A stretch of DNA of 34,862 nt from Pseudomonadota bacterium (GTDB lineage: Bacteria > Bdellovibrionota > FAC87 > UBA2466), in assembly GCA_043718025.1 (NCBI GenBank), contig JAYSWN010000075.1:1-34862 (forward strand), given 5' to 3'. Under the pieces are notes generated by a model. That model was not told the origin of the DNA. It did no database searches and saw only the letters and a program-made list of their open reading frames with translations. Positions 11,229 to 31,637 of the stretch are shown piece by piece. Position 1 is the first letter of the stretch. Each line of letters opens with the position of its first letter. Both the position numbers and the translations under genes were made by a program.

Positions 11229-12257
11229 ATGTTTAGGGTTCAGTTGTTTGTTTTGGCGTTTCTGGTCACCGTGGATTTGTTTGCCCGGACCAGCCCGCAA
11301 TGCGTGATTTATCTTTCAGACCTGGCTTACAAAAAATGGGCCGGTGGTAGCTACACTCTTAATGACGTCGAACGGGTATTTCATCGAAAGTTTAGAAATG
11401 ATCCCACTTTTGCGACCTGGATCTATGCGCAAAAAGAGCTTTCTGAAACGCCTGAGCAGTTGCTTACCCGTTTTGAAAACGAAAATCCAAAGTTAGACTC
11501 GATGGTTCCAGCCAGTTGGGATCTTACCAACTACGGAAAAAACTTGGCTCCGATCACGGATGACACCCGCCCGATGCACGGAATGCGATACTACCTTGAG
11601 CAGGCGCGAAGGTTTGTACCACTCTGGCGAACCATTCCCAAGCGATCTCCGTACGACGAAGCGGTGCTTTCTTTACGAAAAGGGGACACCGTTGAATTCG
11701 GGGCCCATAAATTTGTACTTGGTGATTTTTTAGGATCGGGAAATTCCACGTTTGTTTTTCGTCTTGAAGGCCAACCGGGTAAAGTGATTCGAATCCCTTT
11801 TTTGGTAGCGCCATTGAAGGGGGTGGGATTTCATCCCGAGATCTTCAATATGCTCACCCGTTGGCGGCAAAAAGATCCGAACATCCCGCAGGTAAAAATC
11901 TATCAAAGCGAATATGGCTTTAGCATCGTGTCAGAGGTGGATGGCAACGAAAATGGCAATGAGTTTTTAATCTCGGTTCGGCGAAAATACATGAACAATA
12001 TGTCACCAGACATGCAACGTTTTTTCACAGAGCTTTCGGAACAAAATCTTTCGTGGGCTACCGTCCACTGGTACTTGGCGGTTGAGAAACTAGCTCTTCA
12101 AGAAAATGACCTTGAGACATTCAATCGTTTACGCTTATTGAGAACACGGGCCAATCAGTATCAGAACAATGCTCTTCTGCTCCACATTTTGGAATACACT
12201 AGACAGTTTGTTTGGGATCGGACCAAGCGAGACTGGATTTTGGTCGATTGGGAATAG
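11229..12257 (+). CDS. Exported protein with truncated protein-kinase-like fold
   Basis: Signal peptide then QCVIYL; LGDFLGSGNSTFVFRL...KVIRIP Gly-loop/beta3; ends QFVW...WILVDWE. Confidence 0.7.
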   Translation: MFRVQLFVLAFLVTVDLFARTSPQCVIYLSDLAYKKWAGGSYTLNDVERVFHRKFRNDPTFATWIYAQKELSETPEQLLTRFENENPKLDSMVPASWDLTNYGKNLAPITDDTRPMHGMRYYLEQARRFVPLWRTIPKRSPYDEAVLSLRKGDTVEFGAHKFVLGDFLGSGNSTFVFRLEGQPGKVIRIPFLVAPLKGVGFHPEIFNMLTRWRQKDPNIPQVKIYQSEYGFSIVSEVDGNENGNEFLISVRRKYMNNMSPDMQRFFTELSEQNLSWATVHWYLAVEKLALQENDLETFNRLRLLRTRANQYQNNALLLHILEYTRQFVWDRTKRDWILVDWE

Positions 12258-16443: not shown

Positions 16444-18546
16444 TTAATTTTTATAGGCGGTGAAAATAGATTCCAAGAGTCGGCCGCAAAATCCTGGTTC
16501 GGCCGGGGCGTCGTGGGGTTCACTTAAGCGGGTGGCCGATCGCCTTGCCCTAAACCAAGTGCGCTTCGAGGCATTTAGTAGCTCGTTAACAACGTGCCCT
16601 CCATAATTTGCGGCCAATAGCGCAGAGACAATCTTTCCGCCCTCGACCACCGGTTCGCCAGCCGTGCCAAATGACATCGCGAAATCTTTCAACGGCTCAA
16701 ATACCACTCCCGGCAAAACGGCCACCGCCGCCCAAAAAGAGAGTGAAGCGGCGCCGATGACAGTAGCGAAGCTAAATTTCTGGGGAGTTCCGACTCCCCC
16801 CAATAATCCGGGTCGGCGAAACCCCTCATCGGTAAAATAGGAAGCATCGATCTGCCGTTGCCAAAATTCGCGGGTGCCGAAACCCCACTCTTTATTGGCC
16901 GAGGGCATTGGTTCGGCTCGTGCAAACATTTCGGCAATCGTGGAGCTTGGCCGCTGAGGACCGTAAGCACGGTAAAGGATGAGCTGCTCTTTGCGGTTTC
17001 TCGCCAGTTGATTGAATAGGCGCATCGCCAATTCGCTTCGGTAGGCCCGCAGCGGTTGCAATACGTGCCTCAATTGCGGAGGAAAATTGTGAAGGATCCA
17101 TTCAACTCGATCAATGAGTGCGATCGCTTCGATTGGCCTCGGCATGGTATCTAGCCAGTCATCGGTTTTCTTTCTAAGCCATCCGAAAAATTCATCCGTG
17201 TCGTAATGATTACGGAACAGGATGGGTAGCACCGGAATCAATCGGTCGAGAAAAGCAATTACGAATTCGCCTTCAGTCGTATCATTTAAAATCGCCTCGA
17301 CCGCGCGGAGGTCGTCCCGTTCGATGTTGTAGAGCGCTCTTTTCTGGGGATTGAGTAACACGTTGCGGGCGCTGGCAAGCAGAACCACTGCGTCGGCGTC
17401 ATTGGCAAAGGTGAGGAGAAGCAGGTTGGCTTCGAGCTCTACCACTTCGGGGGGGGAATTCTCGCTAATTCCGAGCCGCTCATACAAATCAAGGGCGTAG
17501 GGGTCGGGCCAGAGGGTACGACTCTCTTCCTCTTTCAATCGACCCGCTAAGCGATCTCGGTTCTCCGCGACGAAATGAAAAGCACGGCGGGTATCTTTTT
17601 TTCCTATAATTTGAAATGCGGAAGTCAAATTTCGTTGCGCCTGGGTATCGGTTTTATTTTGGGCAAAGGCATCAATATAAAGATCAAGAATTTGCCCCTG
17701 ATCCATATTCCAACTGGCGCCCAATCGCGCGTAGGGATCGTCACTAAATGGGTTGGCAATTAACTCAGACTGCGCTCCGGTTTCGTCTCTCTCCAACGCT
17801 GGCTTTGGCGCTATTGGTCCGTAGGCTCCGGGTTTCTCATCGTAGCGCGCCCGAAATGCGGCATCGGATAGTAGACTATAGGTATTGTGCAGTAAGGCGG
17901 CCGCAGCTTCGTTATCTTTGGCAAAGACCAGACTTCTACGGTGGCCCTCGGCCAAAATTTGTTCATTGGCATCCTCGGGAACATCTAAGCGTTCGTAGAG
18001 CGTTTGCCCCTCTAAAAGCGCCACGGCATCGGCTTTTGAAAGATCTCGAACCCTCATCCAAATGCGGACCTTTCCCTCGTCGGTTTTTTGTTCGAATAGA
18101 CCAACTGCCGCACAGACGGCCCGGGCCGAAAAATTGTCTGCGTCTACGACTAAGAACAGTTCAGAGCGACCGTCTGGGTTAAGACGAGCGATTAACTCTT
18201 GAATCAGCAGCGTGCCGACCTTTTGTCGCCGAAACTCGGGCGCCACGGCCAAGCGAATGATTCGAATATGGGTGGCCGTCATTTCGTAAATCACGTAGCC
18301 AAGCACCTGTCCGTTGCGTTCGACTACCCGGGAAAAAACGTTGGGTTTTTTCTGTTCGCGAGAAAAGTCGGCCGGCGACCAGGCTTTGGCGCTCGATAAC
18401 TTTTCAATATTAAGTACTTGGTCGCAATCTTGCGGTCCAAAGGGGCGAACTAGGTCTCCCTCGGCCAAAACGGGTGAGGGCAAAAGAAAGCAGAGCGCGA
18501 GAAAAAGAGGCAAAAAACGGTGGGCAAATGTGCGTCCACAACTCAA
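16444..18546 (-). CDS. Exported multidomain protein: RimI-like GNAT, three J-domain-like repeats, C-terminal hydrophobic segments
   Basis: Signal peptide ending PVLA; LAVAPEFRRQKVGTLL acetyl-CoA motif; LYERLDV..LLSDAAFRARYD, DPYARLGA..RRAFH, LYERLGI..LLNPQKRALYN. Confidence 0.82.
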   Translation of the reverse strand: MSCGRTFAHRFLPLFLALCFLLPSPVLAEGDLVRPFGPQDCDQVLNIEKLSSAKAWSPADFSREQKKPNVFSRVVERNGQVLGYVIYEMTATHIRIIRLAVAPEFRRQKVGTLLIQELIARLNPDGRSELFLVVDADNFSARAVCAAVGLFEQKTDEGKVRIWMRVRDLSKADAVALLEGQTLYERLDVPEDANEQILAEGHRRSLVFAKDNEAAAALLHNTYSLLSDAAFRARYDEKPGAYGPIAPKPALERDETGAQSELIANPFSDDPYARLGASWNMDQGQILDLYIDAFAQNKTDTQAQRNLTSAFQIIGKKDTRRAFHFVAENRDRLAGRLKEEESRTLWPDPYALDLYERLGISENSPPEVVELEANLLLLTFANDADAVVLLASARNVLLNPQKRALYNIERDDLRAVEAILNDTTEGEFVIAFLDRLIPVLPILFRNHYDTDEFFGWLRKKTDDWLDTMPRPIEAIALIDRVEWILHNFPPQLRHVLQPLRAYRSELAMRLFNQLARNRKEQLILYRAYGPQRPSSTIAEMFARAEPMPSANKEWGFGTREFWQRQIDASYFTDEGFRRPGLLGGVGTPQKFSFATVIGAASLSFWAAVAVLPGVVFEPLKDFAMSFGTAGEPVVEGGKIVSALLAANYGGHVVNELLNASKRTWFRARRSATRLSEPHDAPAEPGFCGRLLESIFTAYKN

Positions 18547-18720: not shown

Positions 18721-20082
18721 TTACTGACTGACGATTAGGGTGTAGATTCGATTTTGAATATTCTGATTGGCGAGGGCCTTCAAAGTGTCGTCAACAAATT
18801 GGGTCATACCGGTTCTTAGCTCGTAAGACTCTTCGTCGGTAATCACAATCGACATTCGGTTTGCCCCTTTCCAACTCAATCCCTTAGCGGCCAGCGCCAT
18901 GCCGTGAAACGACGCCTCGCCGGGATTCGTGCTGTGATTCTTTTTAGCATACTCGGCTAGCAGCCGTTTCAAAGTGGTGCCGGTTTTCACCATGTCGTTA
19001 GTAAAGTCTTGCTCGACCAGTTCTCGCTTAGGTTCACCAAAAGTAACGATGGCGATACGAATGTCTCTTCCTGCCTTTTTTACGTTCTCAAGCTCGGTCA
19101 CAATCGACAACAGGCCATCAATCACCCCTTGAATGTCATCGGCCATCGAGCCTGAGTAGTCGACAATGAAGGCAATTTCTAACGCATCAGAGTTTTTATT
19201 CAGCTGCTGTTTAAAATGGCTGATGCTGTCACTGATCGAGACCGGCAGGCTGGCCGCGGTTTTCGAAAAGCCGACGCTGCCGCCGGTTTTGGAGCTCAAA
19301 ATGACACCGTCCTCTGCGGCCTGCACGGAAAATCCGTTGCGGGTGGCGTACTCGGTGACCGCCTTGGCATCGGATAAGGGGAGCAATTTGCCCGTGGTAT
19401 CTCGTACCCAGCCCGAGTCTTTCGCCCCGACTGCCGCCGCCACTTCTTGGTCGCGTGCAGTAGGAACAATTTGTGGAATTGACTGCACCATTGGCGCCTT
19501 ATTGCCAGTGAGCCGCGCATAGACTTGTGACTTGGAGTGAGCGTACGCCAGGATAGTTTTTTGATCCTGGGTGAGTAGGCTGCGAATGCCAGACAAAGTG
19601 CTCGAAAGCCGTTCATAGCGCCGCTTTTTTTCAAGCAGTTCATTTTTCTTAGCGTCACCGAGTTGGTAGACCAAGGCAGCGTTGTCGGCGAGCCCGCTCC
19701 ACAGCACGAGAATTTGTTGCTCAAGCGCGGTGAGTTTATTAACCGCCCTTCGATGTAATTCAGTCGTGACTTTAACTTGGGCCTCTAAAGCCGTTGCCGT
19801 GATGTCGGAGAGCTGCACAACGAGCCGATCGGAAGTCATCACCACTTCGCCGGTGCTAGTTGCGTACTCGCTCAAAGTGACGTCGAGGTCTTCCAAGGCT
19901 AACAGCTCTTTTTCAGACTCTTGCTGTGCCCGGTAGGAGGTGCCCAAAAGGGCGTTATATTTTTTGACCAGTTCATTGTAGTCGTTGCCGTTCGACGGCG
20001 TTGGCACGGTTAGCGGAATTCCGCAGCCGGTGAGTAAAAGACAGAGGGCTACTAAAGTGGCGGTTAGTTTTCGTTGTAACAT
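18721..20082 (-). CDS. Lipoprotein with coiled-coil stalk and C-terminal vWA domain
   Basis: Lipobox LLTG-C; helical heptads; FIVDYSGSM MIDAS, IAIVTF, IVITDE; GAAGGA RBS. Confidence 0.9.
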   Translation of the reverse strand: MLQRKLTATLVALCLLLTGCGIPLTVPTPSNGNDYNELVKKYNALLGTSYRAQQESEKELLALEDLDVTLSEYATSTGEVVMTSDRLVVQLSDITATALEAQVKVTTELHRRAVNKLTALEQQILVLWSGLADNAALVYQLGDAKKNELLEKKRRYERLSSTLSGIRSLLTQDQKTILAYAHSKSQVYARLTGNKAPMVQSIPQIVPTARDQEVAAAVGAKDSGWVRDTTGKLLPLSDAKAVTEYATRNGFSVQAAEDGVILSSKTGGSVGFSKTAASLPVSISDSISHFKQQLNKNSDALEIAFIVDYSGSMADDIQGVIDGLLSIVTELENVKKAGRDIRIAIVTFGEPKRELVEQDFTNDMVKTGTTLKRLLAEYAKKNHSTNPGEASFHGMALAAKGLSWKGANRMSIVITDEESYELRTGMTQFVDDTLKALANQNIQNRIYTLIVSQ

Positions 20083-20270
20083 AATTTCTTTCCTTCGTAT
20101 GACGGGCGGGCCCGTCGGTTTTGGTTGAAGGGGTTATAGAAATTCCAATGGCGAGTTTCTAGTAAATGCCGTGAATTAGGTTGATTCTTGTTTCGCGGGC
20201 GAAACAGAGCAAGGATGAAAGAGCCCATTGCCTGGGTTCTATCCACTATTAGTGGGCGCGTTTTCGCTCT

Positions 20271-20457
20271 CGTCTTTGCGAGGCCGCAGGCCGAAGCAAT
20301 CCTCACACGGTGGAATAAAAGTCATTCCATTGAAAATTGTTGGTAACGCCGATGTAAAGGACGCTACCAGTCCAATTCGCCATAATGTAAATAAAACTCT
20401 GTCTCTCATCAATCATCGGCCAAGGATTGCCGCGCCACTTCGTGGCTCGCAAGGACG
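20271..20457. mobile_element. MITE-like element with REP-type palindromic ends
   Basis: Left CGTCTTTGCGAG-GCCGCAGGCCGAA-GCAATCC; right GGATTGC-CGCGCCACTTCGTGG-CTCGCAAGGACG. The outer 12-mers are inverted (1 mismatch) and the inner 7-mers are perfectly inverted. Confidence 0.75.
20303..20416 (-). pseudogene. Internally deleted GIY-YIG nuclease gene
   Basis: Manual translation MIDERQSFIYIMANWTGSVLYIGVTNNFQWNDFYSTV*: GIY-YIG N-terminal motifs joined directly to a WxDxY-like C-terminal tail. Confidence 0.8.
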
Positions 20458-20628
20458 GGTGGGGAGCTTACCGCCAACTTTTAGAGGAAAGAACCCATTG
20501 TCTGTTTACGCAATTGGCAATTTTGATGGGGTGGACACTTTAGTTCCGTATTCTAAAGGAACACAACGCTGCCGGTCTGGGCCTCGAAACTGCACTTAAA
20601 CCGTTTAGTCGGAATTGGGGGGCTCATC

Positions 20629-21657
20629 ATGGAACGGCACATCGGCTGGGGAATTCTCATCCTTATAGTTCTGCTTATTTTCTCTAAAACCAGGGTTGAA
20701 ACAAGGGCATTGGTTTCGCCACGCCAGGCTTCTGTCGCGCGCGAAATTCCGGCGGCTGAAGCAAATCGTGGCCCCGCGATGGAAAAAGAGCGAATGGCTC
20801 CAAGCAAAGAGGTAGTGCCAGACTCCGCGCGCGAGGCAAGTCTCGCCGTCGATATGGAGCGGCTGCTCACCATGGCCGCGAACGCGGGCAGTAGAATGGC
20901 GGTGGAACGGGCAATAGCGCAATTCGAGCTGGTCGGGCTGTTGGCGAAACAGGGGCGTATCGCCGAGGCAGTTATGGCCGCGCAGGTTGCCCAGGCCATT
21001 GCAGAAGAGTCGGGTGACGATGGTCATCGTCGGCGCGCGGCGCGGATTTTGGCGACGCTTTATGAATTAAAAAATTCTGGAGCAGATGCTAGATCTCGGT
21101 TGGTGCCCGCCGGATGGACCGAGGCGCGCGAAAAAGAAGACCCAAGTATCCCGGCTGAGGCGCTCCCATTAGTTACTTCGAGCGTTCCCACTGCCGATGA
21201 GGCGGCCGCACGTGATCAAGCGGAAATAGATTTAAAGGCCCGCCTAAAAAGAACTTACGCAGATTCCGAAGTCTTTAGTGCCCCAAAGGTTAGCCCTTAC
21301 CTTATGGAACGCGCAGGAATAGCGGTACGGTACCAGTCCCTTGGATTTCCCGAAGAGGCCGAAAAGCGCTTTGCTGACTTGCTACACGAGTACGGTGATT
21401 CCACTTACGTACAGAAGGAGTATGCCGGCTATTTGGCGCAAACCAGAGGCGAGAAAGCGGCCATTCGCTACTTAAGGGAAAAGAATTTGCAAACCCCGAA
21501 TGATCTTTTCTTGCGGGTATCGTTAGATACCGCCGAAGAATTAGCGTTACTTCCGAACGCTGACAACGCGCGCGACCGCCTTTATCTTGAGATCGGCGGC
21601 CGCCTACAATTTCTAAACGCCCTGCCCACATTCGCAACGGCGAGCGACACAAACTAG
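20629..21657 (+). CDS. Membrane-anchored TPR-like helical protein
   Basis: N-terminal TM GWGILILIVLLIF; Ala-rich helices such as EEAEKRFADLLHEYGDSTYVQKEYAGYL; GGGGG RBS. Confidence 0.68.
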   Translation: MERHIGWGILILIVLLIFSKTRVETRALVSPRQASVAREIPAAEANRGPAMEKERMAPSKEVVPDSAREASLAVDMERLLTMAANAGSRMAVERAIAQFELVGLLAKQGRIAEAVMAAQVAQAIAEESGDDGHRRRAARILATLYELKNSGADARSRLVPAGWTEAREKEDPSIPAEALPLVTSSVPTADEAAARDQAEIDLKARLKRTYADSEVFSAPKVSPYLMERAGIAVRYQSLGFPEEAEKRFADLLHEYGDSTYVQKEYAGYLAQTRGEKAAIRYLREKNLQTPNDLFLRVSLDTAEELALLPNADNARDRLYLEIGGRLQFLNALPTFATASDTN

Positions 21658-31207: not shown

Positions 31208-31637
31208 AGATGCCCTGACCGCAGTCTCACTTCGGGGTCATGCCGTTCTCTGGTCTCACCCACGGCCCACGCAATCACATCGGCCAACTTTGCCGGGCGC
31301 CTTAACTTGGAAGAGAGCAGGTCTTTGAGCACGGTGAGGTATGAGGAGCGTGGCGGATTCCTTGGCGTTTCACTTAATGGTGGGGTTTAGCTTTTCACCT
31401 TGGCGCTTGGGCTGAGTTCCGTATCGTGGAGGGGCTACTTACTTTGCCACGTCCCCCTTCCACTAATCATCATAAAGAGTCCCTAAAGAATCCAACCGCA
31501 GTGGCTTTGTGCCAAAAAATGGCCTCTTCACCATGTAGACTGGCGGTGAACACTTCGCCAACCGAGCTTGAAATGTCCAATCTATTTGGCGGGCAATTTG
31601 CACACCCAAGGCGCGGGATTGAACTCAAGTTACGGTG

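What the first reader, a model, noticed from the sequence alone, without database searches (positions are those of the whole stretch)
20271..20457. Non-autonomous element: REP-type palindromic ends enclosing an internally deleted GIY-YIG gene
Seen: the two ends are mutually inverted and each has its own internal hairpin (GGCC-GCA-GGCC; GCCAC-TTC-GTGGC). Between them lies a 37-codon ORF, below the ORF-track cutoff, with FIYIMAN..VLYIGVTNN fused in frame to WNDFY. The catalytic middle (conserved Arg and Glu helices) is missing. From memory, GTCxTTGCGAG..GCAATC repeats often flank small stand-alone GIY-YIG genes. Inference: this is a MITE-like deletion derivative, supporting the idea that GIY-YIG plus palindromic ends is a mobile unit analogous to RAYT/REP.
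Basis: partly seen in the sequence, partly recalled or inferred. Interest (0 to 1): 0.7.

Follow-up and report, generated by a model that had tools for sequence, protein, structure and literature searches.

The report
Gutted nuclease cassette riding ISL3 ends
This is a broken, shortened copy of a small DNA-cutting-enzyme gene with its hairpin repeats, which sits between the two ends of an unrelated jumping gene (ISL3) and was likely copied around the genome by that jumping gene's enzyme, not by its own nuclease.

Summary
The two hairpins and the 37-codon ORF are a 180-bp in-frame deletion of an intact 97-aa GIY-YIG gene in the same genome (contig C124). That gene looks like the published Ssn single-strand nucleases with their CGTC-tagged hairpins (PMC11893778). 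At least eight deletion forms occur among 24 loci; this one is at six. The true ends lie outside the hairpins: imperfect inverted repeats and a 9-bp target duplication starting with C. One end matches the right end of an ISL3 insertion sequence in same-family genomes (up to 23 of 26 bases), and that IS makes the same C-first 9-bp duplications. So it is most likely an ISL3-derived non-autonomous element carrying an ssn cassette as cargo, moved in trans. It does not show that GIY-YIG plus palindromes is a self-mobile unit. Against: no ISL3 transposase was found in this 92%-complete assembly. Two more families here enclose such hairpin pairs in IS5- and IS4-type ends. The scan noted gene-less hairpin pairs in ISL3 and other MITE ends before, on other DNA; new here are the intact parent and the deletion series.

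The parts
20226..20234 (-). Target-site duplication, copy beyond the R end (8 of 9 bases match the other copy; first base C)
20235..20270 (-). Outer arm R; its outer 24 bp form the imperfect terminal inverted repeat (about 16 of 24 to arm L; 13-17 of 24 to the other end of ISL3 elements in relatives)
20271..20302 (+). Hairpin B, CGTC-tagged SRM-like repeat (downstream of the gene; its tag reads on the + strand)
20303..20416 (-). 37-codon relic of the ssn-like GIY-YIG gene: parent codons 1-27 joined to 89-97 through a hybrid codon 28
20333..20334 (-). Junction of the 180-bp deletion; the same junction is in 6 loci of the assembly
20424..20457 (-). Hairpin A, CGTC-tagged SRM-like repeat (upstream of the gene)
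20458..20469 (-). Inner 12 bp of arm L; not IS-derived (1-2 of 12 match); carries a short motif that also precedes ssn genes in 9 of 11 same-family loci
20470..20495 (-). Outer 26 bp of arm L = right inverted repeat of an ISL3-family IS (window copy 19-22 of 26, C100 copy 22-23 of 26, against five IS ends from four relatives)
20496..20504 (-). Target-site duplication, copy beyond the L end
20217..20225 (-). Second 9-bp copy of the start of arm L directly after the duplication (also seen, longer, at C99); unexplained

Best explanation
The 261-bp element is an internally deleted copy of a hairpin-flanked GIY-YIG (Ssn-like) nuclease gene enclosed in ends that match an ISL3 insertion sequence, and it was likely copied to this site by an ISL3 transposase supplied in trans. 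Steps: (1) Inferred: a hairpin-ssn-hairpin cassette came to lie inside an ISL3 element whose transposase was lost, leaving a mobile insertion cassette of about 440 bp. Shown: the gene-bearing form survives at C124. (2) Shown: internal deletions removed the catalytic core in at least eight different ways. (3) Shown: deleted forms sit at different sites with their own 9-bp duplications (window and C100 for this deletion; C99 and C53 for 226-bp deletions). Inferred: they transposed after deletion. (4) Inferred: the mover was the ISL3 transposase, because the duplications abut the ISL3-like ends and copy that IS clade's C-first 9-bp signature. (5) Inferred: tandem arrays of the inner cassette arose by recombination at a roughly 16-bp direct repeat shared by the two arms. 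The 37-aa peptide is likely functionless. The hairpins would remain substrates for the intact nuclease when single-stranded.
For: Same-locus flank match peaks at 9 bp (0.74, against 0.17-0.38 for lengths 2-8 and 10-15) over 8 loci with both termini. Ignoring the shared C, 46 of 64 positions match (permutation p 0.0001). C is the first base in 14 of 15 left and 14 of 14 right flanks. A pattern built from arm L and the ISL3 ends seen was found in 5 of 33 same-family genomes and 0 of 367 other genomes of the phylum. In 11 of 20 such loci examined it directly follows the C-terminus of a transposase that passes the NCBIfam ISL3 cut-off (NF033550, 217.9 bits against 180). All 4 such IS copies with both ends have 9-bp duplications starting with C on the same side (9/9, 9/9, 9/9, 8/9). 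The arms never occur without the cassette here. Two other families in this genome enclose similar hairpin pairs in ends matching an IS5-family remnant and an IS4 transposase. Ssn homologues elsewhere lack such shells: 0 of 80 distant loci had these three end motifs, and 0 of 14 same-family loci had an ISL3-like shell. Peptide: private changes are mostly non-synonymous and most other deletions shift the frame. Published precedents: mobile insertion cassettes moved in trans (PMC6199540, passages); an ISL3-type MITE identified by the same logic (PMC11448079, passages); RAYT genes likely multiplied in trans through a linked IS1106 fragment (bioRxiv 10.1101/2021.07.10.451892, passage).
Against: No ISL3 transposase was found in this assembly (PF01610: 0 matches; tblastn best E 1.7). 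The assembly is 92.4% complete in 234 contigs, and 56 of 468 contig ends carry a hairpin core, so repeats are poorly assembled. Only 4 of 8 two-ended loci have a duplication of 8/9 or better; the others score 6, 6, 4 and 3, and the intact parent scores only 6/9. Two perfect 9/9 pairs are split between different loci, which needs recombination or misassembly. Arm R is only 13-17 of 24 identical to IS ends, so it cannot be called the left repeat firmly. No empty site was found. Gene conversion between older insertions could also spread a deletion without new transposition.
Confidence: 0.8

Rival explanations
1. One reading: the hairpin-bounded unit is itself mobile, and the intact GIY-YIG nuclease at C124 moves it in trans, as RAYT is thought to move REPINs. 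The outer arms would be incidental.
For: An intact nuclease gene is present while no ISL3 transposase was found. The Ssn paper notes the IS-like architecture and the REP/RAYT parallel. Hairpins flank homologues widely and occur free in relatives.
Against: Duplications sit at the outer arms, 36-38 bp outside the hairpins, and match the ISL3 signature. 0 of 12 complete cassettes with both flanks assembled lack both arms. Only about 2 of 100 hairpin-pattern matches look like free repeats. In the sections read, SsnA is shown to cut only; no joining activity is reported.
Confidence: 0.07
2. Two-enzyme model: ISL3 does the dispersing, but Ssn cutting a few bases outside each hairpin placed the cassette inside IS elements or gutted them, and drives later rearrangements. 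This would explain three separate captures in one genome.
For: Three unrelated IS-type shells enclose related hairpin pairs. In 4 of 11 rearrangement junctions read by eye in the arms, the break lies within 2-4 nt of the hairpin tag (C38, C27, C124, C17). My reading of the oligo lengths in PMC11893778 section 8 puts the SsnA cut about 3 nt from the tag (figure not seen).
Against: 4 of 11 was not tested against a null, and two of the four have microhomology. Plain selection also explains it: a cassette that lands in an active IS is the one that gets amplified. A test for a general insertion footprint around 34 homologue loci was confounded by neighbouring hairpins. No empty shell was found.
Confidence: 0.2
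3. The in-frame 37-codon ORF makes a functional peptide or decoy that has been kept by selection.
For: This deletion is in frame and is at six loci; a second, different 180-bp in-frame deletion exists at C81.
Against: Differences from the parent in four copies are mostly amino-acid changing, including the YIG motif in C100. The commonest deletion (226 bp, 10 junctions) and the 218-, 161- and 265-bp ones shift the frame. R31, H35 and E68 are lost.
Confidence: 0.04
4. The deletion or the flanks are an assembly artefact of a collapsed repeat.
For: Fragmented metagenome assembly, split duplication pairs, and no single contig spans the whole stretch in the runs laid.
Against: The junction is in six contigs with different substitutions. 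A 260-nt contig from a second study spans it (run X4, 20264-20416). The window copy has its own 8/9 duplication, and both flanks join the element in runs X1 and X2.
Confidence: 0.02

Closest known systems
Ssn nucleases (cd10448) with NTS/SRM hairpins (Chenal et al. 2025, PMC11893778; read: abstract, sections 7, 8, 10, 12, 17 and passages; supplements not opened)
   Same: Single-domain GIY-YIG of similar size (97 vs 94 aa); Tyr-Tyr-Glu spacing Y10/Y21/E68 equals Y6/Y17/E64; gene flanked by inverted CGTC-tagged hairpins.
   Different: Here the cassette is inside ISL3-type ends, has a family of deletion derivatives, and has longer hairpins that miss the published search string. The main text has no occurrence of 'MITE'.
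CGTC-tagged REP superfamily (Di Nocera et al. 2013, PMC3733652; read: abstract, section 7, passages)
   Same: CGTC tag, palindrome, inverted heterodimers; no dedicated transposase. The paper notes CGTC dimers nested in a 41-bp outer palindrome in H. neapolitanus, with no empty palindromes found.
   Different: There the outer palindrome was not tied to an IS; here it matches ISL3 ends, has target duplications, and the spacer is a nuclease-gene relic.
Mobile insertion cassettes (MIC231) and ISL3-type MITEs (PMC6199540 and PMC11448079; passages only)
   Same: IS ends without a transposase, enclosing a passenger gene or non-coding DNA; moved in trans; ISL3 MITE ends begin with the same GGCTCTT-type bases.
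   Different: The passenger is itself a repeat-associated nuclease cassette. The duplication reads as 9 bp with a fixed first C (equivalent to 8 bp plus a fixed C), against 8 nt in the Microcystis case.
REPIN-RAYT system (bioRxiv 10.1101/2021.07.10.451892; passages only)
   Same: Inverted hairpin dimers in intergenic space with one intact nuclease gene; precedent for an IS spreading the gene in trans (IS1106-linked RAYTs).
   Different: Enzyme is GIY-YIG, not an HUH tyrosine transposase; dispersal here carries DDE-type duplications and IS ends.

Membership tests
Ssn/SRM system (parent gene) | Small single-domain GIY-YIG protein | tested here: met
   97 aa, only PF01541 (E 6.4e-16)
Ssn/SRM system (parent gene) | Catalytic Tyr, Tyr, Glu (Y6, Y17, E64 of SsnA) | tested here: met
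   Y10, Y21, E68 have the same spacing and are invariant in 80 of 80 homologues; matched by spacing, not by alignment to SsnA. E68 is deleted in the window copy.
Ssn/SRM system (parent gene) | Gene flanked by inverted CGTC-tagged hairpins | tested here: met
Ssn/SRM system (parent gene) | Hairpins match the published degenerate SRM string | tested here: not met
   No match even with 3 substitutions. The string also hits only 12 of 80 homologue loci, so it misses long-stem forms. The repeats are therefore called SRM-like.
Ssn/SRM system (parent gene) | CDD cd10448 assignment / place in the Ssn clade | not testable with these tools
   No CDD library held; no SsnA sequence fetched; no PDB match
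Ssn/SRM system (parent gene) | Site-specific cutting of single-stranded DNA next to its hairpin | not testable with these tools
   needs an assay
ISL3-derived non-autonomous element (MIC/MITE) | Terminal inverted repeats matching an ISL3 element | tested here: met
   Arm L 19-23 of 26 to IS right ends; arm R weaker, 13-17 of 24
ISL3-derived non-autonomous element (MIC/MITE) | Target duplication of the same length and type as the IS | tested here: met
   9 bp, C first, in both; 4 of 8 loci at 8/9 or better
ISL3-derived non-autonomous element (MIC/MITE) | No transposase inside; dispersed, mostly intergenic copies | tested here: met
   24 clusters; 11 of 13 loci examined have no spanning ORF of 100 aa or more
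ISL3-derived non-autonomous element (MIC/MITE) | Cognate transposase in the same genome | tested here: inconclusive
   None found in a 92.4%-complete, fragmented assembly; runs gave only short unassignable pieces
ISL3-derived non-autonomous element (MIC/MITE) | Empty site with one copy of the target | tested here: inconclusive
   No orthologous flank DNA in 3 same-genus genomes; no skipping joint in 4 runs
REPIN-RAYT | Associated enzyme is an HUH tyrosine transposase (RAYT) | tested here: not met
   The enclosed gene is GIY-YIG; the one Y1 transposase found is flanked by a different repeat
REPIN-RAYT | Hairpin dimer is the dispersed unit | tested here: not met
   The dispersed unit includes the outer arms and duplications

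The most novel reading that the evidence does not exclude
Ssn cassettes are hyperparasites of insertion sequences: the nuclease cuts beside its hairpins, lands in or guts IS elements, and turns them into hairpin-carrying MITEs that the IS transposase then amplifies. This genome would hold three independent products (ISL3, IS5 and IS4 ends) and the only gene-bearing intermediate seen so far. CGTC repeats, long without a known mover, would spread by a two-enzyme relay.
Probability: 0.2. Interest if true: 0.75.

Novelty: new variant of a known kind. Interest (0 to 1): 0.42.

Why it matters
How CGTC/SRM repeats multiply is open: the 2013 survey found no dedicated transposase and the 2025 Ssn paper offers mobility only as a hypothesis. 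This genome shows one concrete route, hitch-hiking inside DDE IS ends, with the intact parent and a graded deletion series that turns a nuclease gene into a gene-less hairpin dimer. It is also a caution: multi-copy deleted ssn cassettes are not by themselves evidence that Ssn is a transposase. The element gives a clean test, since arms and hairpins can be changed separately. All parts are of known kinds. I did not find the combination in the ten full-text searches; the library lacks most subscription papers and ISfinder, and the Ssn paper's supplements were not opened.

Tried and rejected
Rfam: no match at E up to 1. PDB sequence search: none. Sigma-70 promoter scan of 20000-20700: none. Arm patterns in genome contigs and metagenome contigs: 0 exact matches. 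IS256 and IS1595 transposases as movers: none in this genome. A strict inverted-repeat-plus-exact-duplication finder on 25 ISL3 loci printed nothing; the ends were found by the weight-matrix scan in the same call and. The idea that the roughly 16-bp direct repeat in the arms is an Ssn insertion footprint: 8 of 34 homologue loci scored high against 3% of controls, but most of those hits came from neighbouring hairpin copies, so it is inconclusive; part of that repeat is a leader motif shared with relatives' ssn genes. Laying four runs on a relative's ISL3 gave only short, low-depth pieces that cannot be assigned to this organism. Summed depth over the repeat is not used as a copy number. Empty site in same-genus genomes: no orthologous flanks. 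The family labels were mis-coded and redone. One search was a wrong-frame translation, redone. PMC8024623 (passages) gave nothing on ISL3 duplications. No structure or complex prediction was run, as it would not bear on mobility.

Full report
Observation. The window is contig C207 of a 4.14-Mb, 234-contig assembly. The two inverted hairpins (20271-20302, 20424-20457) and the 37-codon minus-strand ORF (20303-20416) are as described. The ORF matches the first 24 positions of Pfam GIY-YIG below the cut-off. Folding is not significant against shuffles, so the case rests on copy number and the parent. The element lies between divergent genes, 153 bp from the start of a VWA-domain protein gene and 134 bp from the next gene.

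Parent and deletion series. A GIY-YIG search of the genome gave 8 matches: three over the cut-off, of which one (C124) is a stand-alone gene between the same hairpins, and five fragments. The C124 gene encodes 97 aa. BLAST of the hairpins gave 68 hits; I kept the 49 at 88% identity or more (26 B, 23 A), which form 24 clusters; the 19 dropped mostly belong to other families described below. The window copy is the parent minus 180 bp and is 247 of 261 identical over shared parts. The junction is blunt and occurs in 6 contigs. Other deletions: 226 bp (10 junctions, one of them shifted, often in tandem arrays), a second 180-bp one, 218, 161 and 265 bp, and one shared by C76 and C2. The lost part holds R31, H35 and E68, each invariant in 80 of 80 homologues. 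Changes in the relic ORF are mostly non-synonymous and most deletions shift the frame, so the peptide is likely functionless (inference). A contig from a second study spans the junction.

The real ends. Conservation runs 38 bp beyond hairpin A and 36 bp beyond hairpin B. These arms occur only with the cassette and form an imperfect inverted repeat (16 of 24). Flank comparison over the 8 loci with both termini peaks at 9 bp, with scores 8, 4, 9, 9, 8, 6, 3, 6 against a cross-pair mean of 2.9 (p 0.0001 without the shared first base). The first base is C in 28 of 29 flanks. Two further perfect pairs are split between loci (C66 with C49, C200 with C163), which points to recombination between copies or misassembly.

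Whose ends. I recalled that ISL3 ends look like this and tested it. PF01610 matched 17 of 33 same-family genomes. Scanning 25 of those loci with a matrix of the element's termini picked out one clade. Its right end matches arm L over 26 bp and not beyond, and its 435-codon ORF passes the NCBIfam ISL3 cut-off. A pattern for this end hit 5 of 33 same-family genomes and 0 of 367 others. In 11 of 20 loci examined it follows the transposase C-terminus, and all 4 copies with both ends have C-first 9-bp duplications in the same orientation. Arm R matches the other IS end less well (13-17 of 24). The inner 12 bp of arm L carry a motif found before ssn genes in 9 of 11 same-family loci and 0 of 79 distant loci, so the seam between IS DNA and nuclease module is visible. 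Against this reading, no ISL3 transposase was found in the assembly or assignable in the runs, and no empty site was found. The helper may be unassembled or extinct.

Not a one-off. A second family of about 186 bp has an inverted hairpin pair inside ends that match an IS5-family remnant at C117, with 3-bp TNA-type flanks (36 end matches). A third, about 257 bp, has a pair inside ends that match the right end of an IS4 transposase at C61. Of 100 hairpin-pattern matches in the genome, 85 were classed into these three families, 3 more belong to the second by eye, 2 look like free repeats and 10 look like chance (shuffled genomes gave 4 and 2). In the loci of relatives that I read, the hairpins looked free-standing (16 loci; 14 ssn loci), and 0 of 80 distant homologue loci carried these three end motifs.

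Mechanism. Shown: composite anatomy, intact parent, deletion series, duplications at IS-like ends, same signature as a real ISL3 clade. Inferred: capture of the cassette in an ISL3 element, loss of the transposase, dispersal in trans, tandem arrays through a short direct repeat in the arms (the B-to-A joint is also in run X3). I give this 0.8. Self-mobility through the nuclease gets 0.07. A compatible two-enzyme reading, in which Ssn cutting creates the composites, gets 0.2; it rests on three captures and on 4 of 11 arm junctions lying within 2-4 nt of the hairpin tag, read by eye and untested.

Comparison with what is known. The nuclease-hairpin pairing is the Ssn/SRM system (PMC11893778), whose authors raise the IS and REP parallel as a hypothesis. 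The parent meets size, residue spacing and architecture, fails the literal SRM string, and could not be tested for cd10448 or activity; so it works like Ssn and is probably, not provably, a member. The hairpins are CGTC REPs (PMC3733652). The shell is a mobile insertion cassette or MITE. It is not a REPIN-RAYT system, though an IS spreading a RAYT gene in trans is a close precedent. Earlier scan notes, seen after the ISL3 match was made, describe gene-less Ssn-type hairpin pairs in ISL3 and other MITE ends in other genomes; they are unchecked and not counted as support.

Verdict. Real, well explained, a new variant built from known parts. The added value is the gene-bearing intermediate with its deletion series, and the correction that the mover is likely an IS transposase. 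Interest 0.42.

Noticed in passing
G000, e.g. C67:923-1108, C87:14234-14421, C190:17823-18008: Second MITE family (about 186 bp) with IS5-type ends and TNA-type 3-bp flanks enclosing an inverted CGTC hairpin pair; ends match a truncated PF13340 transposase remnant at C117 (L189).
   Followed up: partly
G000, e.g. C173:39658-39913, C189:1-256; L109 (C61): Third family (about 257 bp) with IS4-type ends enclosing a hairpin pair; one end matches the right end of an IS4 transposase gene at C61. No left end of that IS was found.
   Followed up: partly
L190 (G000:C53, about 11430-12210): A Y1 (IS200-like) transposase gene flanked by long inverted repeats that resemble a fourth dispersed repeat family; looks like a TIRtron. 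The IS4-type elements often sit next to or in this repeat.
   Followed up: no
window 20217-20225; G000:C99:79296-79313: The start of arm L is repeated directly after the right-hand target duplication in two loci, as if a tandem second copy had been almost wholly deleted.
   Followed up: no
L166-L180 (ssn loci of same-family genomes); window 20458-20469: A short C-rich motif lies 35-52 nt upstream of ssn starts in 9 of 11 same-family loci and 0 of 79 distant loci; possibly a promoter or regulator site.
   Followed up: partly
G000:C66/C49 and C200/C163: Perfect 9-bp duplication pairs are split between different loci, suggesting recombination between copies or misassembly.
   Followed up: partly
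L135, L141, L145, L152, L155 (G019); L138, L143, L150 (G007): The same ISL3 clade has other transposase-deleted derivatives with unrelated interiors in relatives, so it forms cassettes readily.
   Followed up: no
window 16444-18546 (-): 700-aa ORF with an N-terminal GNAT acetyltransferase domain followed by a weak DnaJ-like match and a long unassigned tail.
   Followed up: no
window 31230-31464: A further repeat of about 235 bp with several copies elsewhere in the genome.
   Followed up: no
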